From a virus (lineage: Duplodnaviria > Heunggongvirae > Uroviricota > Caudoviricetes): a stretch of 64,000 bases of DNA. The notes under the pieces were generated by a model, which saw only the letters and a list, made by a program, of their open reading frames with translations, was not told where the DNA came from and did not search any database. The translations under genes were made by a program, and so were the position numbers. The stretch is from IMG/VR virus record IMGVR_UViG_3300031760_000026, one strand, 5' to 3'. Shown here one piece after another: positions 4,945 to 49,258 of this stretch (position 1 is the first letter of the stretch; every line of letters begins with the position of its first letter).

Positions 4945-6177
4945 TTAAGAATATACAAAACCACTTTCGTTGAAGTTTTTCTTCTGTTTAAGAGCTCTCG
5001 AGATAGCCAAGTCCAAAGGGCAACTGGATTTTAGCCGATAGTAATATAAATCTTTGTATGGAGTGTTCATCCGATCTATTCTTCCGGCCGACTGAACCAT
5101 AATTTTGTAAGAATAGTTCAATGAATAAAAAATTATCGTGTCGGTCTGTATGCAATTCCAGCCTTCTGCTCCGGCAGTATACTGCACCAAATATACCCAC
5201 TTTTCACCATTTGGAATGTACTCATGTTTATGCCCATTCCATTCGGCGACCTGAACACCGGGGCCATAATCAATAGATTTTAAAATATCCAATTCGTAAT
5301 CATAATTATAGAAGATTATTGTCCTAGGATGATTCTTCCTCAGTTCTAATATGGCTTCTACTCTACTTGGATCACTATTAATTACTCTCCTTGCTGTATA
5401 ACATAGTTCTGCAGCATTTACGATTGGGGAATCTGAAAATATATTCCATCTCTTTCCCATTACAAACTTATATGTTTCTTTGTCATAATCGACGGTAATT
5501 GTTTCATGATGTGTGACTGTTGGACGAGTATAGTCCATATTGATAAGGATCTTATTTCTTAGTTTAATCAATCGACCTTGGTCCAAATATCTATCAACTT
5601 GTGGAAACTTGGCAAACCTCTTGTATACAACATGCCTGGTTATGAACTCGCTTTTATTCTTGTAAAAACCATTTGCTACAAACACCGGCATGTAATCCAT
5701 CCATGTATCACCTGGAGTTGCGCTTAATAATATCCATCTATTCCTTTTGGCTATTTGCCAGAAAGATTTGGTCCACGCTCCAGATCCGACGACCCTTTGT
5801 TCATCAAATATAAAGAATGAGTCTTTCACATTAATGTACTTCTTAATGTTGTTCCAAGAATCAATCACCAATGACATCTGACCAAAATATAAAGAATCTT
5901 CATTATTTGAAATTAGAAATGGGGAGCATTCTTTTTCCCACTCTTTGGTATCTCTTTTTCTAGCAGTGGTAATAATATAAAGGTCTTTCGGGTTCTTCAT
6001 TGGATAATAGTCATCTTTTAAGCCCTTTGAAAACCCATCAAGTATGCCATTACACTCTTTTGTGAAAAAATATGCCAATGACGTTCTTGATTTGCCAGAC
6101 CCAACTCCTCCGCAAAGAATAGATCCATTACCCAATCGATCAACAGCATCCCATTGGTAATCATATAAAAAACTCAT
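4945..6177 (-). CDS. SF2 DEAD/DExH-box helicase
   Basis: Walker A is GGVGSGKS, motif II is FIFDEQRV (DExx) and motif III is LLSATPG. Helicase C-terminal-like region follows. Confidence 0.8.
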   Translation of the reverse strand: MSFLYDYQWDAVDRLGNGSILCGGVGSGKSRTSLAYFFTKECNGILDGFSKGLKDDYYPMKNPKDLYIITTARKRDTKEWEKECSPFLISNNEDSLYFGQMSLVIDSWNNIKKYINVKDSFFIFDEQRVVGSGAWTKSFWQIAKRNRWILLSATPGDTWMDYMPVFVANGFYKNKSEFITRHVVYKRFAKFPQVDRYLDQGRLIKLRNKILINMDYTRPTVTHHETITVDYDKETYKFVMGKRWNIFSDSPIVNAAELCYTARRVINSDPSRVEAILELRKNHPRTIIFYNYDYELDILKSIDYGPGVQVAEWNGHKHEYIPNGEKWVYLVQYTAGAEGWNCIQTDTIIFYSLNYSYKIMVQSAGRIDRMNTPYKDLYYYRLKSSCPLDLAISRALKQKKNFNESGFVYS

Positions 6178-6732: not shown

Positions 6733-6766
6733 AATTAATAGCTCCTTTCAAAAATATAAATAATTA
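6733..6766 (-). promoter_or_regulatory. example of the recurrent upstream motif TTATATTTTTGAAAGGAG-N(7-10)-ATG (promoter-like element fused to the RBS)
   Basis: On the minus strand: TTATTTATATTTTTGAAAGGAGCTATTAATT ATG. The same motif precedes ~20 genes in the window (see findings). Confidence 0.5.
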
Positions 6767-9700
6767 AGAGGCAAATGCCTCGAAATCTCCATACTGAGAA
6801 ATCGAAGTAATTGCCTCATCTACCATTGCCGCATAATATCTTCGGTCGATGTCATCTTCTTTATGCAGAGTCTTTACCATTTCGGACTCCATCCAACGAT
6901 ATCCCTTCGTCCCCGTGGCTGCGCTATACTTACCATTCTTTTCTCTCAAAAGAATTCCGCCGCCACATCCTGGTTTAATTGGGCAGAAAGAACCGGCTTT
7001 ACCAACAAATTGGTAGTTATGACCAGAACAAATCCGAGAATATAAATCTACAGCTTCTTTTAATGCTGACTGATACTCTTCGTTCTGGTATGAAATATCC
7101 ATGTCTCCAGCAGCAAATGCTTTCGCAGTATTCTGAATGCCAATTAGATCAAATCCATGTTCCTTACAGATTTTATCAAGATGCTTCTCATACTCGCTAA
7201 CATCTGGAAGATTCTCATTCATGTCCAAATATAAGGCCGAGGTTACAGTTTTAGTTTCGCACATGTCTCGGAATCCGATTGCAGATTTACTAAACAATGT
7301 TTTGAATACATATGGAACCTGAAACTGTGTGCCTGTTGCAGTCCAAGCGGTTTTTACACTTTCGCCAGTAGGAAGCTCAAAGTCATGCTCGCCATCATCA
7401 TACTTAGCAATATAAACTGCATCATTAACTAAGCACATCTTGGCATATGTGGCCTCATGCTCAAAAGTATATCCATACTGCTTTCCATAATTCATAACAA
7501 ACTCAATGATCTCTGGAGTCGCATCAGGAATCTTGATTGAGTCTGTTTTAATATGCGCCACAGTATAGCCACGATCCTGAACCTCATGCTTCAAATTAAT
7601 CATGAATAAGGCTCCACGTTTAGCCACGATATTATCAATGTTGCGAGGATCTTTGAATGGATTCTCAAATGTTGCCGATGTCAAACCATATACACTATTA
7701 ATCGCAATCTTTAATGCATATGACAAAGCCTTTGCCTGCTTTCCATCAGTTAAATATTTAGAAAGTTTTCCACCAAACAGATTTCCTGCTGCCTCAAAGT
7801 CTTTATGCTTAATATAAATTCGAGCTTGCTTAATGTCACTGAAGTTCTTTGTATACGGACCAAACAGATTTAGGCACTCAATACTCGTCGGGTGCATAGA
7901 AGCGATGTCTAGCAGTGCCACATTGGAGTACATGCCAGGCTCAGAATATACATAGCCACCTTCACCAGTTTCCTCACCTCTATAAGTACTCTTTCCATGA
8001 TCATACTTATACCCAGGAAACATTTCTGAAAGATCAGTATACACAAACTGAGATTGGGGCTTCTTTTCTGATCCAAATATAATTCTAGTAGTATGCATGT
8101 TTGTCGTGGCATTCACATTCAAACCGGAAATATCCGCCAGAATCTCTCTTGCCACAAAATCCTCGTGACGTGCATTAAATACTGCTTCAGTAGCAATGAC
8201 ATCATTATCGCAATACTCAGCCACCTTCTCCCAAAGTTCTTCTGGAACAGGCTGATCCCACGGAAGACCGAGTTCCTGATGATGAATATCAAGTTCGATT
8301 TCCCACTTTTTCAAGCTCTGTTTCTTAGCACAGAAGTCATATACATCTGTGTAAGAAATATCATACGCTTCTCCAAAGAAGGCATTAGAACTTCCGCCAA
8401 TAATCCTTTGAGACAGCTCATAAATCTGAGATTCGGAATATCCAAGCATTCTGGCATAAAGAATGTGGTTATCGTAGCGTCGACAGTTAAAACCAACAAG
8501 TTTAAATCTAATCAGATCCTCAATCTCATTTGGAGACGGATTGATCATTCTATTTACCGGATTTCCTTCTCCTTCTTTCTTCCAGTTAACAAGAAGAAGA
8601 TTAGGGAAAACCTCGACATCATAGAATATCAAGAAGTCTTCCAAAGATTCCATTGCTTCTGATGGTTCATCTGACTTAAAGTGCATTTGATCAACCATCT
8701 TTAAACAATCAGATGCATGGTGACTACTCTTAGCCGCAAAAGTCATAATATAAGGTCTAAGATTTGTCACATCATAATGCATTCCACTTTCGTACGCGTC
8801 GTTTAAAACCTTCTTAATAAACTCACAGCTAGTAACTGTCGCATGTGGAGCATACTCTTTTGCCAGACTTCTCCGAATGATTGTTCTTAGGGCTTTCTCA
8901 TTTTTAATAGATTCAAAATTTACCACTTTGTCCTCCTTTCGAAGTGGTAAGCCAGAACTGATAGTTGCAAATATCAATGGCGCACACTTGGTAAGCTTAC
9001 GTCTCAATGAAGACTTACCACTAAACACCTTAACTTCGATTCCATCCTCATAGATTCTACTAAGCTTACTTACATCGCCATTGTAAATATAATGCAGATG
9101 GATTCCTTGCCCGCTCTTGCTAAGCTCAGCGTAAGTTTTAGGCCATTTAGAAGCTGCCTCGATGTTCCTTTCAAGAGACTTGTTGCCTTCGCGATCCTTT
9201 AAATCGAAATCGATTACGATATGATTCTCAGGCACTCTAACATAGTGGAGCTTGCTAGTGTCAAGATCTGATAGTCTTGTTGTAACTTCATCCCACTTTT
9301 TCCAAGGCCCCTCAGTGTCTGGGTTAGCATATTGAGCTAAAGCTGTAGCCATCTCCAAATCAAACGGAGACTTAGTCTCAACAAACTGAAGCCAAGTTCG
9401 ATCTTCAGAATTGCCTAGCTCTTCAGCCCCTGAAATATCTTGCTCATTAGATTGCTCCTCCTCGATGCCAAACTTACTAAGCTTTAAGCCGCTATAATAG
9501 TTTCTAACTTGATTGTCATCCTTATCTCTAGCTCTATCATCAAAATGTTCAAAATAGTTTTTAAGCTCTTCTTTAAATAGCCTCTTGCTATATGGATAAG
9601 GAACTTTAGCTTCTTCACAGTATTCCTTGTATCTAGTCCATGCTTGCTGAAGAGTAACTCCATCCGCCTGCCTAAAATCAAAGAAATTTTCCTCCATATA

Positions 9701-10759
9701 GTTAAAGAAGTCGTTAGTAGCTCCAAGCATTGACTTAGGAATATAATTTTCATATGCTTCTTTATCTTCTTCATATACTTTAAGGCAATGATATGCAATT
9801 GCCCCAAGTTCGAAGTCGATCTTTTTCATAAGTTGATTATATCTCTTATAAGGAATCTTCTTTTCAGTAGGGGAAACATCGATAAGCCTTCGAATAATAC
9901 CTGATTTACTATCTGTAATCCTGACTGGACTATTTGTTCCCATAAACAGCATTGCATGGAATCTCGTAGAATATAATTTAGAATACTTCTCATTCACGGT
10001 CATTTCTTCATGGGAAACCAAACTATTTAAACGAGTATTATCTTCAATTCTACTCAAATTACCATCATGCTGAATTCCAACTAATGGATTATTCTTGAAT
10101 GGTTCGAGAGCAAAAGCGTCCGTGCTACTTCCAAGTGCTTTGGCATCAAACGAAGCACAATATCCATTAAATAACTTTTGGATAATATTCAAGATAGTTG
10201 ACTTGCCAGTACCGGCGCTTCCATAAAAAACTAGAAACTTTTGAATTAACTTGCTATCACCATTCACAACAGATCCAATAGCCCATTCGATCTTATGTCG
10301 CTCTGGTGCAGAATATAAAGTTCCAACTAATTCATCCCAAGCTTCGATACTTCCTTCTTCCAATGCATAAGGCAATCTCATACTCGCATAGTCTTCTCTA
10401 TTTACCGGACTATTTGCAAATATCAATTTCTCATCAAGATTATGAAAGTTATCTCTCATTTGCTTCTGGCAATACTTGTGCCACTTGTCAATCATCCCAG
10501 TATCGCCATTCCACAAATATAAAACTTTTGCATCTGCCAAAGCAGGATTATTTTTCTTGTATTGATCTAACTCATGGTCGATTAAGTCTACTACATCATC
10601 CTGAGATTTAGACCATAAACCTTTATTCTCATCCCATATAGCATAAAAATCGCCGCCACGAATCATTAAATCTTTTGATGCCTTTGTGATAAATACTGGA
10701 TAGATTTCTGCAGGACCAGTCTTTTTCTGCTGTCGCCAAGTAACTTTTAGAAAATCCAC
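6764..10759 (-). CDS. Replicase fusion: SF3 (P4/D5-type) helicase, archaeo-eukaryotic primase (AEP), 3'-5' exonuclease and family B DNA polymerase
   Basis: SF3 motifs are Walker A FYGSAGTGKST and motif C FMGTNSP (aa ~180-280). AEP motifs are HIVIDFDLKD (DxD) and SGQGIHLHYIY (sxH) at aa ~520-560. Exo I is FYDVEVFPN and Exo II is YCDNDVIA. PolB motif A is DIASMHPTS, motif B is KIAINSVYG and motif C is HIKTDSIKI. Confidence 0.85.
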   Translation of the reverse strand: MDFLKVTWRQQKKTGPAEIYPVFITKASKDLMIRGGDFYAIWDENKGLWSKSQDDVVDLIDHELDQYKKNNPALADAKVLYLWNGDTGMIDKWHKYCQKQMRDNFHNLDEKLIFANSPVNREDYASMRLPYALEEGSIEAWDELVGTLYSAPERHKIEWAIGSVVNGDSKLIQKFLVFYGSAGTGKSTILNIIQKLFNGYCASFDAKALGSSTDAFALEPFKNNPLVGIQHDGNLSRIEDNTRLNSLVSHEEMTVNEKYSKLYSTRFHAMLFMGTNSPVRITDSKSGIIRRLIDVSPTEKKIPYKRYNQLMKKIDFELGAIAYHCLKVYEEDKEAYENYIPKSMLGATNDFFNYMEENFFDFRQADGVTLQQAWTRYKEYCEEAKVPYPYSKRLFKEELKNYFEHFDDRARDKDDNQVRNYYSGLKLSKFGIEEEQSNEQDISGAEELGNSEDRTWLQFVETKSPFDLEMATALAQYANPDTEGPWKKWDEVTTRLSDLDTSKLHYVRVPENHIVIDFDLKDREGNKSLERNIEAASKWPKTYAELSKSGQGIHLHYIYNGDVSKLSRIYEDGIEVKVFSGKSSLRRKLTKCAPLIFATISSGLPLRKEDKVVNFESIKNEKALRTIIRRSLAKEYAPHATVTSCEFIKKVLNDAYESGMHYDVTNLRPYIMTFAAKSSHHASDCLKMVDQMHFKSDEPSEAMESLEDFLIFYDVEVFPNLLLVNWKKEGEGNPVNRMINPSPNEIEDLIRFKLVGFNCRRYDNHILYARMLGYSESQIYELSQRIIGGSSNAFFGEAYDISYTDVYDFCAKKQSLKKWEIELDIHHQELGLPWDQPVPEELWEKVAEYCDNDVIATEAVFNARHEDFVAREILADISGLNVNATTNMHTTRIIFGSEKKPQSQFVYTDLSEMFPGYKYDHGKSTYRGEETGEGGYVYSEPGMYSNVALLDIASMHPTSIECLNLFGPYTKNFSDIKQARIYIKHKDFEAAGNLFGGKLSKYLTDGKQAKALSYALKIAINSVYGLTSATFENPFKDPRNIDNIVAKRGALFMINLKHEVQDRGYTVAHIKTDSIKIPDATPEIIEFVMNYGKQYGYTFEHEATYAKMCLVNDAVYIAKYDDGEHDFELPTGESVKTAWTATGTQFQVPYVFKTLFSKSAIGFRDMCETKTVTSALYLDMNENLPDVSEYEKHLDKICKEHGFDLIGIQNTAKAFAAGDMDISYQNEEYQSALKEAVDLYSRICSGHNYQFVGKAGSFCPIKPGCGGGILLREKNGKYSAATGTKGYRWMESEMVKTLHKEDDIDRRYYAAMVDEAITSISQYGDFEAFAS

Positions 10760-19765: not shown

Positions 19766-20367
19766 TCACCCTCCTTCCGAGTAAACCATCCGCACTTAAA
19801 ATATTGGTATGTATTGACGTCAAAATTCTGGACGTCGTAATCAGGAATTACTTTTCTGCCACAATATAATCTGATAGAAAGCGGATCTTCGGTGATGGTG
19901 CGTTTAAGTTCAAAATACTCATCTTTTGGAAATCTATAACCCGTCATCTGCATCCAAGTCGATCCATATGGCATAATTCCTATAAACCTCTCAGGATGCT
20001 GATTCGTGGCTCCAAATATAATAGGGCCATCACCGTATTTGACTTCTTTACCGCCTTCTTTAAGATATGCGACATAGTCAAAATCATGAATAATATGGAT
20101 CTTACGTATTGTTTCATTATTCTTAGCGTTAAATGCAAATCTATCCGCAGAATAAATAATATCGCTTGGGATGATGAGCGCGATCAAATCTAATAAAGTA
20201 GACTTCCCAGTTCCTGGTCCGCCAGAAAATATCAAATTAGTTGGTATTTCTTCTAACTTTCCTACAGCTGCAAGTCCAATAATCTCTTCAAGTCTTTCTG
20301 CCTGAGGATACCAAAGAACACAATCTACTAAGCTGTTCCAAGCCAAAACAGAATCTGAGTAAGCCAT
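19762..20367 (-). CDS. P-loop NTPase with SF3-helicase-like core
   Basis: Walker A FSGGPGTGKST and motif-C-like IIFGATNQ. Confidence 0.45.
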   Translation of the reverse strand: MAYSDSVLAWNSLVDCVLWYPQAERLEEIIGLAAVGKLEEIPTNLIFSGGPGTGKSTLLDLIALIIPSDIIYSADRFAFNAKNNETIRKIHIIHDFDYVAYLKEGGKEVKYGDGPIIFGATNQHPERFIGIMPYGSTWMQMTGYRFPKDEYFELKRTITEDPLSIRLYCGRKVIPDYDVQNFDVNTYQYFKCGWFTRKEGE

Positions 20368-20430
20368 TTTTCTCCTTTCAAAAATAAAGAAGGGTGTAAA
20401 AAGTACTCCACACCCTTCTTTGCATTTGCC

Positions 20431-21864
20431 TTACCAGCAATACTCCTCGATCCTCTTCTCCAGGTTTCCTTCTCCCTGCTCAGCAAGAAGGATGAAGTCA
20501 AAGATCTTCTCAGACCAGCCGGCAATAATGTTGGTATGCTTGCCATGGAACTGCTGAGTGCCATAACCATGCAAATCAATGGCGTGGACCCAAATATCAT
20601 TGTCAGTCATCCGGCGATACTGATCAGCATAGGACTGAATTGTGGACTTTCCGCACCATCCGCCATTGCACTCATTATCTGAGAGAATGATGATGCGGTC
20701 GGCTTTGATCTTGCCATCGATCATAGCCTGAAACGGAAGCCTCATGTCAGTGCCGCCAGAAGGATGAGCATAGCGGATAGTGTTCTCAATGAGTCCACCA
20801 CGTCTGGAGATATCCATTCTCTTAATGGAATGATTGAACGTATACACGATGGAGTCATCGCAGATACGGTTGGCAATCAGACCAAGAAGAACGGAAATAT
20901 CGCAGCACTTAACATCGGACTTAGAGCTGATGCATGAGCTCATCGAGCCAGAAGTATCCATGGCAATGATAGTTCTACCTGGAATCTTCGGAAGATTCTC
21001 AACAGAAATATCAATGGCGTCCTCAAGAGTGTCGAAGACCTTGCTGCTGGCGATTCCATTAAGGCTTCTATAAGCATTGAGGAAACGGAAGGGGAGCTGC
21101 TTGGATTTCCGAACTGCCTCAGGATTCCGAATATAATTAAGCGCCTCATCCAGATTGTCCGGACCGGCATTAATAGTATTTCTCAGATTCCGAAGCATAG
21201 CCATGTAGCCAACTTTATGGCTGGCGATGAGTTCCTCCCAGACTTCCTTTGTATTGCCTTTAGTGGACAGCTCAGTTTCCCAGGTGTAAGGAGTCTCGAG
21301 AGTTCCTTCAAGGCAGTGCTTCCAAAGAGCTTCCTGCTCCTTATTTACTGGCTTAGGTCTGCAGAGGCAAAGCAGGTCTCTCATCTTTACTTCCTTACCA
21401 GAGCCCTTGTATTTGGCAAGAGAGTACTCGTCGAGAGTCTGCATGACTTCGCCAATGCCCTTCTTCAGAGAGTTCGGAATAGGCTTGCCAAACTCCGAAA
21501 TATAAAAAGCCATAATCTCAGTCAGGTCATCGCCTCTGAGACATACGCCTTTTACAGTGGAGCGGACAAAGGGCTTACCCTCAACCTCATGTGCCAAATA
21601 TCCCGTAAGGACATGAGACACAGAGCGCATGTTGAACTCTCGTCTTGCAAAGACTGCAAGATTGGAGACAAACTGCGGGTCCTCCTTAATGACCTTAGGA
21701 ATGAGCTCCTTCATTTCCTTGGAGTTGTCTCCATAGAACTTCTTCTCGTTGAAGAAGCTCGTGAGGACCTGAGTAACAAGCTTGGACTTATTACTCATCT
21801 TGTACGCTACATGGCCCTCGTGGTTAGTGGTCTTAATGCTCGGGGAAGAATTGAATTTTGCCAT
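20431..21864 (-). CDS. rsr: Ro60-like protein (TROVE domain + vWA/MIDAS), bacterial Rsr homolog
   Basis: The N-terminus is NHEGHVAYKMSNKSKLVTQVL...FYGD (TROVE-type start). A C-terminal vWA domain carries the MIDAS motif IIAMDTSGSMSS. The start is refined to ATG at 21864 (MAKFNSS) with a GGAGG RBS; the track's 55-aa N-terminal extension runs through an ncRNA. Confidence 0.75.
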   Translation of the reverse strand: MAKFNSSPSIKTTNHEGHVAYKMSNKSKLVTQVLTSFFNEKKFYGDNSKEMKELIPKVIKEDPQFVSNLAVFARREFNMRSVSHVLTGYLAHEVEGKPFVRSTVKGVCLRGDDLTEIMAFYISEFGKPIPNSLKKGIGEVMQTLDEYSLAKYKGSGKEVKMRDLLCLCRPKPVNKEQEALWKHCLEGTLETPYTWETELSTKGNTKEVWEELIASHKVGYMAMLRNLRNTINAGPDNLDEALNYIRNPEAVRKSKQLPFRFLNAYRSLNGIASSKVFDTLEDAIDISVENLPKIPGRTIIAMDTSGSMSSCISSKSDVKCCDISVLLGLIANRICDDSIVYTFNHSIKRMDISRRGGLIENTIRYAHPSGGTDMRLPFQAMIDGKIKADRIIILSDNECNGGWCGKSTIQSYADQYRRMTDNDIWVHAIDLHGYGTQQFHGKHTNIIAGWSEKIFDFILLAEQGEGNLEKRIEEYCW

Positions 21865-21914
21865 TTTCAAGCACCTCCGAAAATATAAATGTTTTAGTGA
21901 ATGCAGAGAAAATT

Positions 21915-22016
21915 GGTTACGGACTATAAAGCTCTTTGATCTACCAACTGATCTACTACTCACGTTGAGTAGATTGGATTTGAACCAATGACACAAAAGG
22001 TGAAGTAACCGTAACC
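21915..22016 (-). ncRNA. Y-RNA-like (YrlA-like) ncRNA A: tRNA-like module with permuted order (T-arm, loop-closed acceptor stem, D-arm) enclosed by a terminal stem
   Basis: The minus-strand RNA reads GGTTACGG...ATTGG-TTCAAAT-CCAAT, then CTACTCA-ACG-TGAGTAG, then TA-GATC-AGTTGGTA-GATC...CCGTAACC. The ends pair over 8 bp (GGTTACGG/CCGTAACC). It lies immediately upstream of rsr. Confidence 0.55.
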
Positions 22017-22235
22017 TACACTGCTGCATAAATATAATTGCCTAGCGTTTCAAGCCCTTTTTAGCGGTGTCTCTGTTTCCGCAATCACGCATTGTCCAAT
22101 AGGGCTATGGGCTATAGGACTCACTCTATGTCGCCGACAGCATTTCAGCTTCCGCACGCATAGAGGATGGTCGATATTTTTATTCCGCATCATCCACTCT
22201 GCGGTAAATATGAATTGCGAGAGCGGAGAAAAGAA

Positions 22236-22340
22236 TTCACAGCTTGTGTTTACCAACTCACAGACAGTCCAATGGACCGCTATAGGATTTGAACCTATGC
22301 ACTTTTTCATATCGAAGTAACTGTGAATATCACTTCCGCT
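22236..22340 (-). ncRNA. Y-RNA-like ncRNA B (permuted tRNA-like module plus GAAGU...ACUUC hairpin)
   Basis: Minus-strand RNA has hairpin GGAAGTG-ATATTCACAGTT-ACTTC, T-arm ATAGG-TTCAAAT-CCTAT, a 7-bp acceptor-like stem GCGGTCC/GGACTGT closed by the loop ATT, and D-arm TGTG-AGTTGGTAAA-CACA. TTCACAG/CTGTGAA is a candidate closing stem. Confidence 0.5.
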
Positions 22341-22347
22341 TGCTCTG

Positions 22348-22779
22348 CTAAAGATTCTGATTATTGTAGTCTAGAATATATCTATGAACTATTGATTTAA
22401 GTTCTTCAAACATTGCCTTATATTTATTTGGATCACAACCAATAAATGAAGTTCTCATGGCGATCCATGTTCCTTTATGGGCTTTAGAAATTTTTGGTTC
22501 ATAATTTCCAAGAGAAATATCACAAATGGTATACAAGGCATTAGTAACTTTCCAGTTTAATTCAGAAGCGATCTCTGGATAATGAGTAGGATCATCTTCT
22601 GACCATTCGTAATTACTTTTTGCGTAGCAGTCATCTTTGAATCTAGAAGCAAGAATAGTTGTTAAATTAGAATTAAGACTGCTTTTGTACAATGCTTCAT
22701 TTTCTTTTTTCTTTTTAATCTTTGCGATTTTCTTTTCAAGCTCTATAAGTTCTTTGTAACTCAAGTTTTCTAGATTCAT
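22348..22779 (-). CDS. hypothetical protein
   Basis: The start is refined to MNLENLS (ATG ~22779), preceded by CAATTATATTTTGAAAGGAGTCTT. The track's longer N-terminus overlaps ncRNA C. Confidence 0.4.
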   Translation of the reverse strand: MNLENLSYKELIELEKKIAKIKKKKENEALYKSSLNSNLTTILASRFKDDCYAKSNYEWSEDDPTHYPEIASELNWKVTNALYTICDISLGNYEPKISKAHKGTWIAMRTSFIGCDPNKYKAMFEELKSIVHRYILDYNNQNL

Positions 22780-22814
22780 AAAGACTCCTTTCAAAATATA
22801 ATTGCCGAGAAAAG

Positions 22815-22930
22815 CCATCACAGTATTTTTAGCGCTCTACCAGACTGAGCTACACCCTAATTCGGATGGCAGGATTCGAACCTACAACCTCTCGCTTAGC
22901 AGGCGAAGTAACTGCAATGTACACTTCGGC
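22815..22930 (-). ncRNA. Y-RNA-like ncRNA C (permuted tRNA-like module plus 5' hairpin)
   Basis: Minus-strand RNA has hairpin CGAAGT-GTACATTGCAGTT-ACTTCG, T-arm GTAGG-TTCGAAT-CCTGC, acceptor-like stem CATCC-GAATTA-GGGTG, and 8-9 TA with canonical D-arm GCTC-AGTCTGGTA-GAGC. No anticodon arm follows before the downstream CDS start. Confidence 0.55.
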
Positions 22931-23065
22931 ATAAAATATAAAACAAAGAGCAAGACCCTAAACATGATAAAGATTAAAACGGTTTGAGTAGGAGGTTAGA
23001 AAGGAGATCAAAAAATGGAAACCAATAATAGAAGGTCAATAAAAATCATTTTTGAAGTAACCGTC

Positions 23066-23095
23066 TTCTACAATGCATGCTTAGAGCCTTGCCAA
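23066..23095 (-). ncRNA. isolated copy of the GAAG-ACGGUUA-CUUC hairpin motif (no tRNA-like module)
   Basis: A sixth occurrence of the GAAGTAAC motif. It may belong to the 3' extension of ncRNA D or be a remnant. Confidence 0.25.
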
Positions 23096-23129
23096 ACGCG
23101 GAGAAATATCATTACGGGCAAATTCTTAT

Positions 23130-23261
23130 TACTGCTCTACCGACTGAGCTACTACTCTCGGCTTACTTACACTTTTCAGCTTCCACGAGTAGATCGGATT
23201 TGAACCGATGACAAATAATCCTATATGAAGTAACCGTAATGTGCACTTCCGCATAAATATC
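23130..23261 (-). ncRNA. Y-RNA-like ncRNA D (permuted tRNA-like module with a 25-nt insertion in the acceptor loop)
   Basis: Minus-strand RNA: CATTACGG ... ATCGG-TTCAAAT-CCGAT, CTACTCG, insert TGGAAGCTGAAAAGTGTAAGTAAGC, CGAGAGTAG, TA, D-arm GCTC-AGTCGGTA-GAGC ... CCGTAATG. The terminal 8-bp stem is CATTACGG/CCGTAATG. Confidence 0.55.
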
Positions 23262-23263
23262 AT

Positions 23264-23491
23264 TTAAGGCATACTAAAATGGAGACTACGAAGACCATTT
23301 TCATTATAGACAAAGTGCCCAGTCTCCATCCGACGCTTAGCCTCGACAGGATTCCAACCGCAATGCTTACAATTTACCTCACAGTCCACGGCAGGCCATT
23401 CCATGATCTCATTGCCACGACGATCCTGACTCTTAGTCCCACAAGGAGCATTCATGAGAGCTTTCGAACGATTATTATTGAGTTCAGACAT
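23264..23491 (-). CDS. small Cys-rich (zinc-ribbon-like) protein
   Basis: 75 aa with CGTK ... CEVNCKHCGW, consistent with a treble-clef or zinc-ribbon fold. Confidence 0.35.
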   Translation of the reverse strand: MSELNNNRSKALMNAPCGTKSQDRRGNEIMEWPAVDCEVNCKHCGWNPVEAKRRMETGHFVYNENGLRSLHFSMP

Positions 23492-23886
23492 TAATGCTTA
23501 CCTCCAGTCATGTACTTCTTTTTCAGCATTGGAATCCCAAGTTCAATTCTTGCTCGATCTTCATCGAGATGGAATCCAACATAGTCGACAAGTACCAGCA
23601 GGAACATCATGATTCTAACAAGTTCTTCCCGACTTGCACCTTTCATGGCCGCAAGTCTAAAAAGCTGCTCTGGGCCGTATGTATTAAATTTTCTAGTAAT
23701 ATCATACTTCTGATGCCATGCTTCATCAGTCATAGCATACCGAGTTCTATAATCCCAAGTCTTGAGTTCGGGCCAAATATCATTTCCTTCCTCAAGGAAA
23801 CTATGCATGAGATCTCTAGTAGCCTTCTCATGCAGCTTTCTCATTTCCTCGGGGGTAATAGTCTTAGCAGTCTTTTCGTTAGCCAT
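23491..23886 (-). CDS. hypothetical protein
   Basis: 131 aa. Start overlaps the upstream stop (ATGA coupling). Confidence 0.4.
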   Translation of the reverse strand: MANEKTAKTITPEEMRKLHEKATRDLMHSFLEEGNDIWPELKTWDYRTRYAMTDEAWHQKYDITRKFNTYGPEQLFRLAAMKGASREELVRIMMFLLVLVDYVGFHLDEDRARIELGIPMLKKKYMTGGKH

Positions 23887-23919
23887 TTGCCAATTTCTCC
23901 TTTTCTTATTTAAATATAA

Positions 23920-24375
23920 TCATGCCAAGCCGAGCCAGTCGACTACGGTGGCAGGATCTGCTTCAAGCCAGTCCCAGGTTTTAGTCTTTCTATCGAACAT
24001 CTCCCCATAGACTGCATGGTAACGATTGTCCGAATCAAAATATCCAACCTGGATCGCATGAATTGGTTTTGTCGCTTTATCAGAGGTTCTCCGATTTGCC
24101 CAAGGAGCATCAACGGAGAAACACTGAATATAATGAGGGTCTGGATTCTTTTTCAGATTAGAAAACCAGTTCCAATGGTCACTGAATCTGAAGGACTTAG
24201 CTGGCTTCCCAAAATAGCTGAGATCTTCAATACTGCCTTTGGGAATCAAATAGCTGGAAATATCAGCATTACAGGACGCAACCACCTCATAGTTTTTGGA
24301 AAGGACATCTTTTAAATTATCAAAGAATTCAATGCACTTCTTCACTTTTTCCTCGTTGGTCAAATGATTCATCAT
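23920..24375 (-). CDS. hypothetical protein
   Basis: The start is refined to MMNHLTNEEK (ATG 24375), preceded by TTTATTTTTGAAAGGAGATTTTATC. Confidence 0.4.
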   Translation of the reverse strand: MMNHLTNEEKVKKCIEFFDNLKDVLSKNYEVVASCNADISSYLIPKGSIEDLSYFGKPAKSFRFSDHWNWFSNLKKNPDPHYIQCFSVDAPWANRRTSDKATKPIHAIQVGYFDSDNRYHAVYGEMFDRKTKTWDWLEADPATVVDWLGLA

Positions 24376-24424
24376 GATAAAATCTCCTTTCAAAAATAAA
24401 AAGAGACCAGACGTAATAAATATC

Positions 24425-24590
24425 GAAATCAGCTCATCATGCCCAATACGAAGTATCTGATTTCTGCAATATACGTCTAGTCTCCTAAAAGTAAGAGGCG
24501 GAGAATATCGAAAATGGTCTAGTTTCTTTTAACAATTACAAGCAAGTTAATATCGAAGTAACCATCTTCTTCACTTCCGCCTCACTATAG
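24425..24590 (-). ncRNA. structured intergenic RNA candidate carrying the GAAGUAAC...ACUUCC hairpin (degenerate relative of ncRNAs A-D)
   Basis: Hairpin CGAAGTAACCATCTTCTTCACTTCCG, long-range complementarity GGCGGAG (24496) with CTTCCGCC (24574), and an 8-bp hairpin GAAATCAG...CTGATTTC at 24430-24468. No clear T-loop and no ORF. Confidence 0.3.
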
Positions 24591-24610
24591 GGGCTGTAAT
24601 TTTTGCGAAT

Positions 24611-25036
24611 TTATTTATCCTTTTTCTTAAACACATCCATCAACTTCAAGTCTGCCATGATCTGTTCTTCATTAAGCCAATTATTAGCTTGCATGAAAGC
24701 CACCATAGAATTAGGTTTGTTAGCTACTTCATGATCTTCGCACCAGTCTAAATATAATTCCTCGATCTGCATTCTTTGAGTAAAGAGAACCATACTCGGA
24801 CCAGAGTAAAATCCGACATCTTCTGGAAACTTACCATCATAGAGGCCGAAGACAATATGCTCTGCGAGTGCTAAAATATCAGACTTAGAGAAGCAGCAGT
24901 TATCGAGCTTCGTTTGATTAAGCGCCGAATCAAGAACCTCCTCCATATTGTCCTGCTGCTTCATGGCTCGGATTGTGTCATCCAAAAGTTCTTCGATAGA
25001 CTCATACTCGATATCAGTCATGCCTACTTCCCTCAC
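24611..25036 (-). CDS. hypothetical protein
   Basis: 141-aa acidic ORF. Confidence 0.4.
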   Translation of the reverse strand: MREVGMTDIEYESIEELLDDTIRAMKQQDNMEEVLDSALNQTKLDNCCFSKSDILALAEHIVFGLYDGKFPEDVGFYSGPSMVLFTQRMQIEELYLDWCEDHEVANKPNSMVAFMQANNWLNEEQIMADLKLMDVFKKKDK

Positions 25037-25421
25037 TCATCAAATATGAATAGCCTTTATACTCTTTTGGCCGTTCACCATTTCCTTCATATGCAGAAGT
25101 TATTTCATGTTTTACCTCAAGCCACCACGAACTCCTTTTATCTCTACTTGTGGCATTGGTGTAAGCCGTAAACAATCTAGTTAAGCATTCCGGAGAACAA
25201 ATATGATGTGTTTCACATGAGTCACAAGAATCATTTCCCCAATCGTTATGGCCGGTATATGCCTCATAAAATACGACAGATAAAGAATTTTTTGGAAGTT
25301 CGTCAGATTCTTCTAGCGATTTTTTATAAACTTGCCGTCCACAAATATCACAGGTACAGGTTTCTTTAGCGTCTCTTCGAGCCGTTATTTTAATGATGAG
25401 GCTCTCTATTTCTTTACTCAA
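25014..25421 (-). CDS. Cys-rich zinc-binding protein
   Basis: Contains CTCDICGRQ ... CDSCETHHICSPEC. Overlaps the downstream gene start (coupled). Confidence 0.4.
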   Translation of the reverse strand: MSKEIESLIIKITARRDAKETCTCDICGRQVYKKSLEESDELPKNSLSVVFYEAYTGHNDWGNDSCDSCETHHICSPECLTRLFTAYTNATSRDKRSSWWLEVKHEITSAYEGNGERPKEYKGYSYLMSEGSRHD

Positions 25422-25432: not shown

Positions 25433-26434
25433 TTACTTAAGTTCTTCGTCCGTAGAAGCTCCCCCAACGTCTCCAAGGTTAAGCATGTAGTTGCTATCCT
25501 GGCCAAGCACAGTCGTAGGAAGTTTGCCATCCCACTGTTTAATCCAATAGTAGTCAACCAGACCGCCGGTAAGAGACTCGGAGATGCGCTTATTCATCTC
25601 TGCTTCCTTCTCGCCAGCATACAGAGCTGCTTCGGCCTGAACTTTTACAACCTCAAGATCTGCATTAGCAGCAATAATAGCCTTATCTGCATCTGCCTGA
25701 GCTGCAATCACGGCTCGTTCGGCAGCCGCCTGTTCCTCCATAGTCTTTTGAGCCTGCTCTGTTTCGGCAGTAAGCTTATTCTGAGCTGCAACCTGCTTCG
25801 CCTCAACGGCATTGGTGAAAGCATCTGTGAAGTCAATATCCTCGACTGCGAAGCTTACAATTGTGATGCCATAGGAACCAAGGTCATTCCGAGTATTTTC
25901 CGCAATCTGCTCAGAAAGAAGTTCACGCTTAGCAATGAGGTTTTCGGCAGTATACTGGGAGAACACAGCCTTTACATTCTCCTGGATGCGAGGGAACATC
26001 ACGGTTTCATAATAGTTTTCGCCAACAGTTCGATAAAGAGTCTGAGCAGTAGACTGATCGATGCAATAGTTTACGGACATCTTCAGATCTACCTGCTGAA
26101 TATCACTAGAAAACGCAGAAGTAGCGATCTCAACCTTCTGCGTGCGATTGTCCATCTTAATGACTTTCTGCCAAGGAGCAATAAAGTTTGCACCGGCAGA
26201 GATTGTGCGATCCTCTACTCGTCCAAAGGTTGTCAGGATGCCTGTATAACCTGTAGGCACAATTGCTACACAACTTGCAACAAATATAATTACTGCAAGA
26301 ATGATGCAGATGAGCAGGGGAAGAGTATTAAACTTATAAGGCACGTCATGCTCGGACTCGTTGAACTTACCAAATACGATGCCGATAACAATGCCTGCAA
26401 TGATCAAAATAATAGGAATAATAATGCCAGCCAT
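25433..26434 (-). CDS. SPFH (band-7/prohibitin/HflKC-like) domain membrane protein
   Basis: N-terminal TM helices, then an SPFH-like core (VPTGYTGILTTFGRV ... ) and an Ala/Glu/Gln-rich coiled-coil tail typical of stomatin/HflC. Confidence 0.65.
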   Translation of the reverse strand: MAGIIIPIILIIAGIVIGIVFGKFNESEHDVPYKFNTLPLLICIILAVIIFVASCVAIVPTGYTGILTTFGRVEDRTISAGANFIAPWQKVIKMDNRTQKVEIATSAFSSDIQQVDLKMSVNYCIDQSTAQTLYRTVGENYYETVMFPRIQENVKAVFSQYTAENLIAKRELLSEQIAENTRNDLGSYGITIVSFAVEDIDFTDAFTNAVEAKQVAAQNKLTAETEQAQKTMEEQAAAERAVIAAQADADKAIIAANADLEVVKVQAEAALYAGEKEAEMNKRISESLTGGLVDYYWIKQWDGKLPTTVLGQDSNYMLNLGDVGGASTDEELK

Positions 26435-40967: not shown

Positions 40968-41315
40968 GCTTATAATCCTCCAGTTTTGTTTTAGTACTTC
41001 TCTACTAAAACACCTGTAAAATATGCGAAAAAAAATAAGGATTGTTAGCTTCGAACTAACGTCTCTCGACCTAAATATCATCGAGCGTTCTACCATTGAA
41101 CTATTACATGGTCTAGGGAATTTCACCCTTCGCCTGGCATAACCCAGCGATTCCATTCTCCTCATTATAAGGAGTGTAAAATATGCGAAAAAGAAAAAGA
41201 GATGTATGGCTTGAACATACAATACCACCTTGCCAAGTGGCGTTTTACCAATTATAACTAATCTCCTTCATTATAAGAACTGTTAAACTTGCGAAAAAGA
41301 AAAGCCACTGTTTTA

Positions 41316-49138: not shown

Positions 49139-49141
49139 ATA

Positions 49142-49216: not shown

Positions 49217-49258
49217 AAATATAAGGACCTATCATATAGACAGGCCCTTAGCTTGTGA

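What the first reader, a model, noticed from the sequence alone, without database searches (positions are those of the whole stretch)
20431..24590. Ro60 (Rsr) gene flanked by an array of four to six Y-RNA-like, tRNA-mimicking ncRNAs sharing a GAAGUAAC hairpin
The TROVE+vWA protein is a bacterial Ro60 ortholog, and bacterial Ro60 genes are known to sit next to tRNA-like Y RNAs (YrlA). Here at least four elements on the same strand (A-D, with B and C about as well supported as A) contain a canonical T-arm and D-arm in permuted order, with the acceptor-like stem closed by a loop, and each has a terminal stem or the shared GAAGU...ACUUC hairpin (A is enclosed by GGTTACGG/CCGTAACC). That is the architecture of YrlA, not of a functional tRNA. 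Having several diversified copies interleaved with small protein genes in a phage is unusual and suggests that the phage deploys an Rsr/Y-RNA RNP (RNA decay or quality control, or decoying host tRNA-targeting defences). A fifth and sixth hairpin-only copy (23066, 24556) and related sequence at 22030-22235 suggest ongoing duplication.
Basis: partly seen in the sequence, partly recalled or inferred. Interest (0 to 1): 0.85.

Follow-up and report, generated by a model that had tools for sequence, protein, structure and literature searches.

The report
Seven Y RNAs beside phage Ro60
A gut or rumen phage carries the RNA-binding protein Ro60 preceded by seven small structured RNAs that share one docking stem but carry different heads (four tRNA look-alikes, three others), which is an expanded form of a known bacterial and phage RNA-protein system.

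Summary
Window 20431-21864 (-) encodes a Ro60 protein (TROVE plus Ro60-type vWA domains). Its closest solved relative is the Ro60 of Thermus phage phiLo.

Upstream on the same strand lie seven Y-RNA-like elements, not four to six. Three of them give sub-threshold Rfam YrlA matches (36-41 bits; gathering score 69).

All seven share one scaffold:
- an outer stem;
- a conserved internal loop (5' AGUGNA, 3' GAUUUUCUC);
- a variable 8-bp inner stem;
- the invariant UUACUUC.

It has no comparative support.

In about 120 related Ro60 loci the same 5' motif is about 140-fold enriched upstream of Ro60 on the same strand, and both stems covary strongly.

The variable heads are:
- canonical YrlA-type tRNA mimics (A, D, and B in degenerate form);
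- a complete circularly permuted cloverleaf with an anticodon-like arm (C);
- three non-tRNA loops (E, F, G).

Phage Ro60/Y RNA systems are already published. What appears new is the array size, the mix of heads and the anticodon-arm-bearing permuted form. Function is inferred: Ro60 is tethered to several different partners. Nothing here has been measured experimentally.

The parts
20431..21864 (-). Ro60 (Rsr/TROVE) gene, 477 aa
   Evidence: Pfam TROVE 1.1e-31 and vWA_Ro60 1.1e-10. The MIDAS-type D-x-S-G-S is invariant in 8 relatives. Full-length match to Thermus phage phiLo Ro60, PDB 9KOP/9L5Y, E 2.3e-33.
20386..20421 (-). Intrinsic-terminator-like hairpin (16 bp plus a T run) directly after Ro60. 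It is the likely end of the transcription unit.
   Evidence: It is the only terminator-like site on the - strand in 20300-25200.
21901..22029 (-). Y RNA A. Outer stem AUGCAG/CUGCAU, inner stem GGUUACGG/CCGUAACC, UUACUUC, then a canonical YrlA-type tRNA-like module: 5-bp closing stem CUUUU/AAGAG, 5-nt variable loop, T arm, 7-bp closed acceptor-like stem, D arm.
   Evidence: Rfam YrlA 36.5 bits, E 1.1e-5. Unconstrained MFE fold. 90% identical orthologue in L009.
22030..22216 (-). Non-coding spacer between B and A. It is not a Y RNA.
   Evidence: Fold z-score -0.27. No similarity to the elements or to other loci. No Rfam match.
22222..22340 (-). Y RNA B. Outer stem AGCGGA/UCCGCU, inner stem AUUCACAG/CUGUGAAU, UUACUUC, a degenerate hairpin, T arm (AUAGG-UUCAAAU-CCUAU), 7-bp closed acceptor-like stem, variant D arm (UGUG-AGUUGGUAAA-CACA).
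   Evidence: MFE fold. 5' motif with one mismatch. No Rfam YrlA match, so its tRNA-likeness rests on anatomy only.
22803..22931 (-). Y RNA C. Outer stem UGCCGA/UCGGCA, inner stem CAUUGCAG/CUGUGAUG, UUACUUC. The module is a complete circularly permuted cloverleaf: anticodon-arm-like hairpin UUCGC-CUGCUAA-GCGAG, variable loop AGGUU, T arm, closed acceptor-like stem, UA, D arm.
   Evidence: Rfam YrlA 41 bits, E 5.6e-7, and tRNA 23.5 bits (below the gathering score of 29). After in-silico de-permutation ARAGORN calls a 77-nt tRNA with anticodon GCU. Orthologues in L040, L091 and L025.
22959..23083 (-). Y RNA F. Outer stem UAAGCAUG/CAUGUUUA, CAUUGUA, inner stem GAAGACGG/CCGUUUUA, UUACUUC, and a 71-nt pyrimidine-rich, mostly unpaired loop. 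It belongs to the CAUUG...UUUAUC subclass.
   Evidence: Exact 5' motif. Closure found (7 of 8 and 7 of 7 pairs). The same subclass occurs in L001, L013, L014, L024 and L028.
23096..23254 (-). Y RNA D. Outer stem AUGCGGA/UCCGCGU, inner stem CAUUACGG/CCGUAAUG, UUACUUC, then a canonical YrlA-type module: closing stem AUUAU/GUAAU, T arm, extended acceptor-like stem-loop, D arm. It is a paralogue of A.
   Evidence: Rfam YrlA 38 bits, E 4.1e-6. MFE fold. A/D similarity of 91-100% over three segments of 14-27 nt.
24408..24479 (-). Y RNA G. Outer stem UAGACGUA/UACGUCUG, UAUUGCA, inner stem GAAAUCAG/CUGAUUUC, the AUACUUC variant, a 17-nt loop. It is a short, hairpin-type (YrlB-like) Y RNA.
   Evidence: Not in the seed alignment, yet found by the scaffold covariance model R1 at 21.6 bits, E 0.0026. 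MFE fold.
24495..24583 (-). Y RNA E. Outer stem GAGGCGGA/UCCGCCUC, inner stem GAAGAUGG/CCAUUUUC, UUACUUC, a 37-nt A/U-rich loop. Hairpin-type Y RNA.
   Evidence: MFE fold. Exact 5' motif. Partial R1 match.
22348..24375 (-). Four small ORFs of unknown function interleaved with the RNAs: 22348-22779 (143 aa), 23264-23491 (75 aa), 23491-23886 (131 aa), 23920-24375 (151 aa). Elements C, F and D lie inside this span.
   Evidence: No Pfam or PHROG match. Only the 151-aa and 131-aa ORFs have relatives in other loci. The 151-aa ORF also lies inside the arrays of L014 and L015. They are therefore not conserved partners of the system.

Best explanation
This is a phage-encoded Ro60/Y-RNA system with an expanded set of seven Y RNAs.

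Shared scaffold. Each RNA is built on the same scaffold, formed by pairing of its 5' and 3' ends:
- an outer stem (type GCGGA/UCCGC);
- an asymmetric internal loop with conserved sequence (5' AGUGNA, 3' GAUUUUCUC);
- an 8-bp inner stem whose sequence differs in every copy;
- the invariant UUACUUC.
By analogy with the stem-bulge-stem Ro60 site of animal, bacterial and phiLo Y RNAs, this scaffold is the docking site for the phage Ro60 ring.

Variable heads. The inner stem carries an exchangeable effector module:
- tRNA look-alikes with a closed acceptor end (A, D, and B in degenerate form);
- a full permuted cloverleaf that keeps an anticodon-like arm (C);
- loops of 17, 37 and 71 nt (G, E, F).

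Proposed working. The RNAs are most likely cut out of one long transcript that also carries the small ORFs and Ro60 and ends at the terminator after Ro60. Each Ro60-Y RNA particle would then tether Ro60 to a different partner: tRNA-binding enzymes for the tRNA-like heads, and single-strand-binding exoribonucleases such as PNPase for the long pyrimidine-rich loop. This would redirect RNA decay, RNA quality control or anti-defence activity in the infected Clostridia host.

Shown: the protein family, the RNA scaffold and its covariation, the linkage to Ro60, and the anatomy of the modules.
Inferred: Ro60 binding, processing from one transcript, the partners, and the biological role.
For: Protein. 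TROVE plus vWA_Ro60 domains. The closest solved structure is phage phiLo Ro60, which binds two upstream Y-like RNAs and host PNPase (PMC12135203).

RNA in the window.
- Three Rfam YrlA matches on the Ro60 strand.
- Seven copies of the 5' motif against 0.67 expected.
- All seven fold, unconstrained, into outer stem, internal loop, inner stem and module.
- Element G was recovered independently by a scaffold covariance model built without it.

Comparative evidence.
- The motif is present upstream of Ro60, on the same strand, in nearly all 87 viral and metagenomic loci: 226 hits in 196 kb upstream against 10 hits in 1.2 Mb elsewhere. It is also present in Clostridia and Bacillus genomes.
- In 74 non-redundant copies the two stems are 87.9% paired against 56.5% in shuffles. 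The covariation score is 0.818 against 0.22, reached by 0 of 500 shuffles. Thirteen of 15 pairs show changes on both sides, and versions slid by 1-3 columns fall to 41-52% paired.
- Selection bias is small. Stringent closure was found for 97 of 214 real motif hits, against 1.4% with shuffled and 2.4% with swapped downstream sequence.
- The 3' loop motif GAUUUUCUC was not used for selection, yet it is conserved.

Transcription. One strong terminator lies right after Ro60, and sigma-70-like promoters in the array are no more frequent than chance. M. smegmatis YrlA and YrlB are likewise processed from one precursor upstream of rsr (PMC4201824).
Against: - There is no expression or binding data for this sequence.
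- Rfam YrlA scores (36.5-41 bits) are far below the gathering score of 69, and B, E, F and G have no Rfam match at all.
- The published Ro60-associated motif GNCGAAN0-1G is exact only in C (GCCGAAG). It has one mismatch in B, D and E, and is absent from A, F and G.
- The alternative GAAGU/ACUUC pairing cannot be excluded, because both sides are conserved.
- The scaffold model R1 fails on copies with long inserts, so E-values exist only for G (and weakly for E).
- The partners of the non-tRNA modules are guesses.
Confidence: 0.8

Rival explanations
1. The elements are decaying or fragmented tRNA genes (pseudogenes) left from a phage tRNA cluster, with no function of their own.
For: T and D arms are tRNA-like. 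C scores 23.5 bits with the tRNA model. Relatives have real tRNA genes interleaved with the elements (L003, L004, L013, L021, L062).
Against: The arm order is permuted and the acceptor end is closed in every copy. A non-tRNA scaffold with compensatory changes encloses each one. Three copies have no tRNA part at all. The scaffold is 140-fold enriched next to Ro60 across distant phages and bacteria. No tRNA is called at threshold.
Confidence: 0.03
2. The repeated stem is a cis-acting mRNA element, such as a processing site, stabiliser or attenuator, that punctuates a long phage operon. It would not be a trans-acting Ro60 ligand.
For: The elements are interleaved with ORFs in what looks like one transcription unit: no promoters above chance and one terminator after Ro60.
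Against: The elements track the Ro60 gene, not the neighbouring ORFs, which are almost never conserved between loci. In many loci they form ORF-free tandem runs directly upstream of Ro60. The tRNA-like heads and YrlA matches have no role in such a model.
Confidence: 0.07
3. Element C and its relatives are circularly permuted tRNA genes that mature into working tRNAs. This would require ligation at the 26/27 junction and opening of the acceptor loop, as in the permuted tRNA genes of the red alga Cyanidioschyzon (my own knowledge).
For: All 23 de-permuted C-type modules, including window C, are called complete 75-77-nt tRNAs by ARAGORN. Their loops read CU-NNN-AA like an anticodon loop. M. smegmatis YrlA is cut by RNase P and receives CCA (PMC4201824).
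Against: No ligase or splicing endonuclease is seen in the locus. Window C pairs a Ser anticodon (GCU) with a short variable loop, unlike bacterial tRNA-Ser. Its acceptor-like stem has only 5 bp. The conserved Y scaffold would be wasted. The other six elements cannot become tRNAs.
Confidence: 0.04

Closest known systems
YrlA Y RNAs (Rfam RF02553; Salmonella, Mycobacterium smegmatis, mycobacteriophages; Chen et al. 2014, PMC4201824; structure preprint 10.1101/312249)
   Same: Encoded within 4 kb upstream of Ro60 on the same strand. The 5' and 3' ends pair into a Ro60-type stem. The effector domain has the order T arm, closed acceptor-like stem, D arm. The conserved YUAY (here UUAC) sits at the entry to the module. 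A and D have the canonical 5-bp closing stem that stands in for the anticodon stem. Several Y RNAs occur per genome, at least one of them tRNA-like.
   Different: Scores are about half the Rfam gathering score. The conserved stem motif is GGNAGUGNA...GAUUUUCUCC rather than GNCGAAN0-1G. There are seven copies rather than the two found in each of the three characterised species (YrlA with YrlB, or Yrn1 with Yrn2). Element C keeps an anticodon-arm-like hairpin and has no closing stem, whereas S. Typhimurium YrlA 'lacks the anticodon loop'.
Thermus phage phiLo Ro60 with Yrl1 and Yrl2 (PMC12135203; PDB 9KOP, 9L5Y)
   Same: It is the closest solved protein (E 2.3e-33 over the full length). It is phage-encoded. 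The Y-like RNAs lie upstream of the gene and have a stem-bulge-stem layout. Binding to Ro60 and assembly with host PNPase were shown in vitro.
   Different: It has two RNAs, described as hairpins with a CGAA bulge, and no tRNA-like module is reported. The host is different (Thermus). The two RNA sequences were not compared here.
Hairpin-type bacterial Y RNAs (YrlB, Yrn2; PMC4201824)
   Same: E, G and F are long hairpins on the Ro60 scaffold without a tRNA-like domain. F has a pyrimidine-rich loop, as noted for YrlB and Yrn2.
   Different: The published loops are described as small, whereas F's loop is 71 nt. No sequence similarity was tested.
Listeria phage CKA15 (P100-like): three highly abundant non-coding transcripts within 2 kb upstream of an Rsr-like gene (PMC12282133)
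   Same: Several putative Y RNAs lie upstream of a phage Ro60-like gene in the same direction. That case has transcript evidence.
   Different: Their identity as Y RNAs was only suggested. No structures or motifs were compared here.
Circularly permuted tRNA genes (Cyanidioschyzon merolae; my own knowledge) and the dimeric-tRNA origin model for YrlA (Sim and Wolin 2018, as cited in 10.1101/312249)
   Same: Element C has every tRNA arm in permuted order. The order (anticodon arm, variable loop, T arm, then a spacer-derived closed acceptor, then D arm) is what the dimeric-tRNA model predicts for an early intermediate.
   Different: There is no evidence that C matures into a tRNA. Its break lies at the 26/27 junction and is bridged by the Ro60 scaffold.

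Membership tests
Ro60 / TROVE protein | TROVE domain above the Pfam cut-off | tested here: met
   PF05731, 110.9 bits against a cut-off of 23.
Ro60 / TROVE protein | C-terminal Ro60-type vWA domain with a MIDAS motif (D-x-S-x-S) | tested here: met
   PF25045, 42.1 bits against a cut-off of 27.7. D303, S305, G306 and S307 are invariant in 8 relatives.
Ro60 / TROVE protein | Full-length similarity to a Ro60 of solved ring structure | tested here: met
   phiLo Ro60 9KOP/9L5Y, residues 11-468, E 2.3e-33. Deinococcus Rsr 2NVO, E 1.9e-5. The fold itself was not predicted.
YrlA (Rfam RF02553) | Covariance-model score at or above the gathering score (69 bits) | tested here: not met
   A 36.5, D 38, C 41 bits; B, E, F and G have no match. 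The same model at gathering score also finds nothing in 11 other Ro60 loci from Chryseobacterium, Clostridium, Bacillus and others, so the threshold is narrow.
YrlA (Chen et al. 2014 criteria) | Within about 4 kb of the Ro60 gene on the same strand | tested here: met
   All seven lie 37-2719 nt upstream on the - strand.
YrlA (Chen et al. 2014 criteria) | T-arm-like and D-arm-like stem-loops separated by a closed acceptor-like stem-loop | tested here: met
   A, C and D in the Rfam alignments. B by fold, with a variant D arm. Not present in E, F and G.
YrlA (Chen et al. 2014 criteria) | GNCGAAN0-1G motif near the 5' end | tested here: inconclusive
   Exact in C (GCCGAAG). One mismatch in B, D and E (GCGGAAG). 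Absent in A, F and G. The consensus of 74 relatives is GGNAGUGNA.
YrlA (Chen et al. 2014 criteria) | Conserved YUAY at the entry to the tRNA-like domain | tested here: met
   UUAC in six copies and AUAC in G. UACUUC is invariant in the 74 relatives, but this is by construction: those sequences were collected by requiring G(U/A)UACUUC.
Y RNA (general) | The 5' and 3' ends pair into a stem with a conserved bulge or internal loop | tested here: met
   MFE folds of all seven. Covariation of both stems.
Y RNA (general) | Bound and stabilised by Ro60 | not testable with these tools
   Needs RIP or gel shift with the phage Ro60.
Functional tRNA gene | Called by ARAGORN, or by the Rfam tRNA model at gathering score, in the native order with free acceptor ends | tested here: not met
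   No call in 20431-24590. C scores 23.5 bits against 29. The acceptor-like stem is closed by a loop.
Circularly permuted tRNA gene | All four arms present, so that re-joining the ends gives a cloverleaf | tested here: met
   Element C only. De-permuted, it is called tRNA(GCU), 77 nt. The same holds for 22 relatives.
Circularly permuted tRNA gene | Maturation to a continuous tRNA with a CCA end | not testable with these tools
   Needs tRNA sequencing. No ligase or endonuclease gene was recognised nearby.

The most novel reading that the evidence does not exclude
The Ro60-docking stem is a portable arm, and phages of gut anaerobes mount it on a panel of baits.

In this window the baits include canonical YrlA heads and a complete permuted tRNA with an exposed anticodon-like loop (element C). 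In relatives, the corresponding loops read mostly UUU, GUU and UGU, which is the tRNA set cleaved by the PARIS nuclease AriB. In L012 and in the cultured Bacteroides phage crAss001, the same arm sits inside tRNA-shaped RNAs that have open acceptor ends.

On this reading, the array is a counter-defence toolkit. It would present tRNA decoys to host anticodon nucleases or tRNA-modifying enzymes, or recruit Ro60-linked exonucleases to them. Its copy number and 'anticodons' would turn over in an arms race.
Probability: 0.18. Interest if true: 0.85.

Novelty: new variant of a known kind. Interest (0 to 1): 0.6.

Why it matters
Ro60 and Y RNAs are conserved from bacteria to humans, but what the variable Y RNA heads recruit is largely unknown. 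In bacteria, only PNPase has been identified as a partner.

This locus and its roughly 120 relatives give three things:
- A sharply defined docking scaffold with strong covariation. It is missed by the current Rfam model and could seed a new or broadened family.
- Natural 'libraries' of up to seven (nine or more in L012) different heads on one scaffold in a single phage. That is a ready-made experiment for finding partners by pull-down.
- An intermediate form (element C) that keeps the anticodon arm. This bears on the proposal that YrlA arose from tandem tRNAs.

A Ro60-like phage protein was recently reported to counter a defence system (Bas63 gp130 against Ppl, PMC11482910). tRNA-targeting immunity is also now known to be widespread. 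The tRNA-like heads are therefore plausible, testable anti-defence candidates.

Related elements next to the Ro60 gene of the culturable phage crAss001 would make such tests practical.

Tried and rejected
1. Rfam at gathering score gives nothing in the region. Only the permissive mode shows the YrlA matches.

2. Megablast of the locus against 50,697 phage records finds no match.

3. The scaffold-only covariance model R1 (52 positions) recovers G (E 0.0026) and part of E. It fails on copies with inserts of 70-110 nt, because long insertions are penalised. I did not build a full-length model and relied instead on motif statistics, folds and pair counts.

4. My first closure criterion was too loose: 22% of shuffled controls passed. 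I tightened it until 1.4-2.4% passed.

5. I rejected it as the conserved structure, although it cannot be excluded as an alternative conformer or pseudoknot.

6. The spacer 22030-22216 as a degenerate copy or separate RNA is rejected.

7. The interleaved ORFs as conserved partners are rejected: they have no family matches and almost no conservation.

8. Sigma-70 promoters in front of each element are not above chance. The phage encodes its own YonO-like RNA polymerase, whose promoters are unknown.

9. Recent derivation of the C-type modules from neighbouring real tRNA genes is not supported. Identity is only 60-75%, slightly higher to Lys and Asn than to Leu and Glu, so the question stays open.

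10. The anti-Shine-Dalgarno-like motif in F-class loops occurs in only three related elements. Overall enrichment in inserts is weak (1.0 against 0.6 per kb), so it is kept as a note only.

11. The automated search for tRNA-topology chimeras produced many false calls, because ARAGORN latches onto the anticodon-like and T arms. I accept only L012 4220-4349 and the crAss001 case at L088 5193-5336, both of which the Rfam tRNA model also scores above its gathering score. A second crAss001 candidate (about 5440-5590) rests on manual reading only.

12. Two review articles (PMC10870794, PMC6047535) are not held in the library. Published statements about the maximum number of Y RNAs per genome could therefore not be checked beyond Chen et al. 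2014.

Full report
WHAT IS THERE. All genes in this part of the window run on the - strand. The ORF ending at 20431 most plausibly starts at the ATG at 21864 (477 aa). The mechanical ORF start at 22029 would run through element A. The protein has a TROVE domain (1.1e-31) and a Ro60-type vWA domain (1.1e-10), both above Pfam's cut-offs. Its closest solved relative is the Ro60 of Thermus phage phiLo (9KOP/9L5Y, E 2.3e-33 over residues 11-468). The window is phage-like: a primase-polymerase (phrog_4210, 1929 bits; 56% identical to that of Faecalibacterium phage FP_oengus), a helicase and a YonO-like RNA polymerase. The closest Ro60 genes in genome collections (60-65% identity) lie in rumen Clostridia and Ruminococcaceae MAGs, so the host is probably a gut or rumen member of the Clostridia.

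THE OBSERVATION. At gathering scores Rfam and ARAGORN find nothing between 20431 and 24590. In permissive mode, three full-length matches to YrlA (RF02553) appear on the - strand: 22812-22909 (41 bits, E 5.6e-7), 23108-23240 (38 bits) and 21913-22015 (36.5 bits). The gathering score is 69. The longer 5' pattern A.UG.A-N7-G(U/A)UACUUC, with at most one mismatch, hits seven times against 0.67 expected. No shuffle reaches seven, and no hit lies elsewhere in the 64 kb. There are therefore seven elements. In 5'-to-3' order on the - strand they are E (24583-24495), G (24479-24408), D (23254-23096), F (23083-22959), C (22931-22803), B (22340-22222) and A (22029-21901). A ends 37 nt before the Ro60 start codon.

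ANATOMY. Unconstrained MFE folds of all seven give the same layout:
- an outer stem formed by the two ends, for example AUGCGGA/UCCGCGU in D;
- an asymmetric internal loop;
- an 8-bp inner stem with a different sequence in every copy (GGUUACGG/CCGUAACC in A, CAUUGCAG/CUGUGAUG in C, AUUCACAG/CUGUGAAU in B, and so on);
- UUACUUC;
- a variable module enclosed by the inner stem.

Tested on 74 relatives, that pairing shows no covariation. Its second pair is unpaired in 54 of 74 sequences, and a control slid by three columns pairs just as well.

COMPARATIVE EVIDENCE. Searches with the Ro60 protein returned 7 viral loci, 80 metagenomic loci (rumen, termite gut, human gut, bioreactors) and 80 genomic loci.
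- In the 87 viral and metagenomic loci plus the window, the 5' motif occurs 226 times in the 196 kb lying within 3.5 kb upstream of Ro60 on its strand. It occurs 10 times in the remaining 1.2 Mb of both strands, a roughly 140-fold enrichment.
- The motif also accompanies Ro60 genes of at least 44% identity in Clostridium lundense, C. punense, Acetivibrio straminisolvens and a Bacillus cereus-group strain. It is absent from the 35%-identity Chryseobacterium-type loci.
- I joined the 5' 28 nt and the 3' 24 nt of 74 non-redundant closed elements into a gap-free alignment. The 15 tested pairs are 87.9% paired against 56.5% after shuffling. The covariation score is 0.818 against 0.22, reached by 0 of 500 shuffles. 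Thirteen pairs show changes on both sides, and slid versions fall to 41-52% paired.
- Because I had chosen 3' partners by complementarity, I measured the bias. The stringent criterion is met by 97 of 214 real motif hits, by 1.4% with shuffled downstream sequence and by 2.4% with downstream sequence swapped between elements.
- The 3' loop consensus GAUUUUCUC was not used for selection, yet it is conserved.
- A covariance model of the scaffold found element G, which was not in its seed (E 0.0026). The model fails on long inserts.

THE MODULES.
- A and D (paralogues) have the canonical YrlA topology: a 5-bp closing stem (CUUUU/AAGAG in A, AUUAU/GUAAU in D) in place of the anticodon stem, a 5-nt variable loop, a T arm, a closed acceptor-like stem (7 bp in A, extended in D), UA and a D arm.
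- B has a T arm, a 7-bp closed acceptor-like stem and a variant D arm.
- C is different. Directly after UUACUUC comes a hairpin with a 5-bp stem and the 7-nt loop CUGCUAA. It is followed by AGGUU, a T arm, a closed acceptor-like stem, UA and a D arm, and there is no closing stem. When I cut the acceptor loop and join positions 26 and 27, ARAGORN calls C and 22 non-redundant relatives complete 75-77-nt tRNAs, 23 of 23 in all. Twenty-one of the 23 loops with perfect stems read (C/U)U-NNN-AA. C is thus a complete circularly permuted cloverleaf hung on the Ro60 scaffold at the 26/27 junction. The solved Salmonella YrlA, by contrast, 'lacks the anticodon loop' (10.1101/312249).
- E (37-nt A/U-rich loop) and G (17-nt loop) are hairpin-type Y RNAs.
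- F has a 71-nt pyrimidine-rich, largely unpaired loop.

HOW IT PROBABLY WORKS. It is established that Y RNAs bind Ro60 through the stem formed by their ends and use the rest of the molecule to tether or gate Ro60. Examples are the Deinococcus Ro60-Y RNA-PNPase machine, the tRNA-like domain of YrlA that tRNA enzymes recognise, and phiLo Ro60 with Yrl1/Yrl2 and host PNPase (PMC4201824, PMC12135203). From this I infer three things:
- The conserved stem-loop-stem is the docking site for the phage Ro60.
- The seven heads give seven particles with different partners.
- The RNAs are excised from one long transcript. The only terminator-like site on this strand follows Ro60 (20421-20386), and sigma-70-like promoters are not above chance.
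None of these steps has been measured. The four interleaved ORFs have no recognisable family and are almost never conserved between loci, so they look like passenger genes.

KNOWN OR NEW.
- Phage Ro60 genes with YrlA-like RNAs were reported in 22 phages in 2014. The phiLo system was characterised in 2025.
- Three abundant transcripts upstream of an Rsr-like gene were seen in Listeria phage CKA15 (PMC12282133).
- A Ro60-like protein of phage Bas63 counters the Ppl defence system (PMC11482910).
- The kind of system is therefore known. Formal membership of Rfam YrlA fails on score. However, that model at gathering score also misses every one of 11 other Ro60 loci I tried. The anatomical criteria of Chen et al. 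are met by A-D. The GNCGAA motif is the exception: it is exact only in C.

What I did not find described, in a library that lacks two key reviews, is the following:
- the scaffold consensus itself;
- arrays of this size. Among 47 loci with at least 2.5 kb of upstream sequence, most have 2-3 copies, the window has 7 and L012 has 9 or more;
- the anticodon-arm-bearing permuted form.
I therefore rate the finding a new variant of a known kind, with interest 0.6.

BEYOND THE WINDOW. Three observations in related loci raise the ceiling.
1. The anticodon-like triplets of C-type modules are mostly UUU (7), GUU (6) and UGU (3). These are the tRNAs cleaved by the PARIS nuclease AriB (PMC12409363). Near-orthologous elements differ in triplet, with compensating stem changes (L024 GUU against L025/L026 UUU; L072 UUU against L074 GUC). 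This fits a decoy arms race. It equally fits descent from the tRNA-Lys and tRNA-Asn genes that sit inside several arrays. Window C reads GCU, which is not a PARIS target.
2. L012 4220-4349 and crAss001 (L088 5193-5336, just downstream of its Ro60 gene gp96) are tRNA-shaped RNAs with open, perfectly paired 7-bp acceptor stems. The one in L012 has an encoded GCCA end. Each carries the same Ro60 scaffold, closed at its outer stem, inserted between the D arm and the anticodon arm. The Rfam tRNA model scores them 43.8 and 46.6 bits, with insertions of 70 and 82 nt. They are the opposite circular permutation of element C.
3. F-class loops in three related phages share UUUGAUCUCCUUU, which resembles the 3' end of 16S rRNA. 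The enrichment is weak.
These are leads, not findings about this window.

Noticed in passing
L012 4220-4349; L088 (Bacteroides phage crAss001, NC_049977) 5193-5336 and about 5440-5590; hairpin-type element at L088 about 5010-5100: These are tRNA-shaped RNAs with open 7-bp acceptor stems (GAGGAUG/CAUCCUC plus GCCA in L012; GGAGGGA/UCCCUCC in crAss001). Each carries a Ro60-type stem-loop (inner stem, GUUUUCC-type loop, outer stem closed by a loop, UGUA, UUACUUC) inserted between the D arm and the anticodon arm. This is the opposite circular permutation of the C-type Y RNA. In crAss001 they lie in the unannotated 900 nt downstream of the Ro60 gene gp96. The Rfam tRNA model scores two of them 43.8 and 46.6 bits, with insertions of 70 and 82 nt.
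   Followed up: partly
window 22895-22911 (- strand; anticodon-like arm of element C) and 22 relatives, e.g. L020 549, L024 4783, L062 1726: The hairpin after UUACUUC has a 5-bp stem and a 7-nt loop reading CU-NNN-AA, like an anticodon loop. The triplets are UUU x7, GUU x6, UGU x3, GCU x2 and five singletons. Most end in U, as in tRNAs for ANN codons. UUU, GUU and UGU are the PARIS AriB target set. Near-orthologous elements differ in triplet.
   Followed up: partly
window 22985-23010 (- strand; loop of element F); L012 about 3855-3875; L014 about 4370-4390: F-class loops share UUUGAUCUCCUUU(U/C)C, which resembles the 3' end of 16S rRNA (the anti-Shine-Dalgarno region). On the opposite strand the same bases read as a strong ribosome-binding site plus ATG (window + strand ORF 23015-23203, 62 aa; only 11 aa in L012). 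This is probably not a gene.
   Followed up: partly
L067 4851, L068 543, L072 4850, L074 4849, L075 4854 (bioreactor and sludge phages): The Ro60-proximal element in these loci carries a conserved module of about 92 nt (GUGCAGGUG.GAAUCCUGCC...GGUGGCGGAA...GACGCGCC). It is neither tRNA-like nor matched by Rfam in L075. It is a fourth class of Y RNA head.
   Followed up: no
L013 3490-4976; L163 1-3584; L003 149-222; L004 5646-5730; L021 4069-4143; L062 467-1923: In many relatives, genuine tRNA genes (often Lys-UUU and Asn-GUU; 17 tRNA-model matches in L163, 16 of them upstream of Ro60) are interleaved with, or directly abut, the Y RNA array upstream of Ro60. In this window the tRNA cluster lies far away.
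   Followed up: partly
window 49063-50469 and 41044-41267 (- strand): There is a cluster of five tRNA genes (Met, Gln, Gly, Leu, Pro). Two further weak Rfam tRNA matches (41196-41267 at 39.4 bits; 41044-41103 at 31.8 bits, partial) are not called by ARAGORN.
   Followed up: no
window 24580-24593 (+ strand): CCTCACTATAGGGG matches the core of a T7-type promoter (CTCACTATAGGGA) at 12 of 13 positions. It lies on the strand opposite to all genes and overlaps the 5' end of element E. It is probably a coincidence of the outer-stem sequence.
   Followed up: no
window 25433-26434 (-); L088 7191-8408 (crAss001 gp91); L012 8256-9161; L014 8166-9074: An SPFH/band-7-type membrane protein gene (phrog_200) lies within a few kb of the Ro60 gene in this phage, in two rumen relatives and in crAss001.
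   Followed up: no
window 23920-24375 (-); L014 3505-3942; L015 530-967; L004 1833-2270: The 151-aa ORF of unknown function is the only interleaved ORF with several relatives. In L014 and L015 it also sits between two Y RNA elements.
   Followed up: partly
L001 10558-10857 (-); L014 6578-6626 (+): Two matches lie just below their gathering scores. One is a group I intron (45.9 bits against 50). The other is DUF3800-VIII RNA (36.7 bits against 40.2), about 120 nt downstream of the Ro60 gene of L014.
   Followed up: no
window 1307-4054 and 6764-10759 (-): A YonO-like single-subunit RNA polymerase (phrog_4291, 1153 bits) and a 1331-aa primase-polymerase (56% identical to that of Faecalibacterium phage FP_oengus) are present. 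The phage probably transcribes with its own polymerase, so sigma-70 promoter scans say little.
   Followed up: partly
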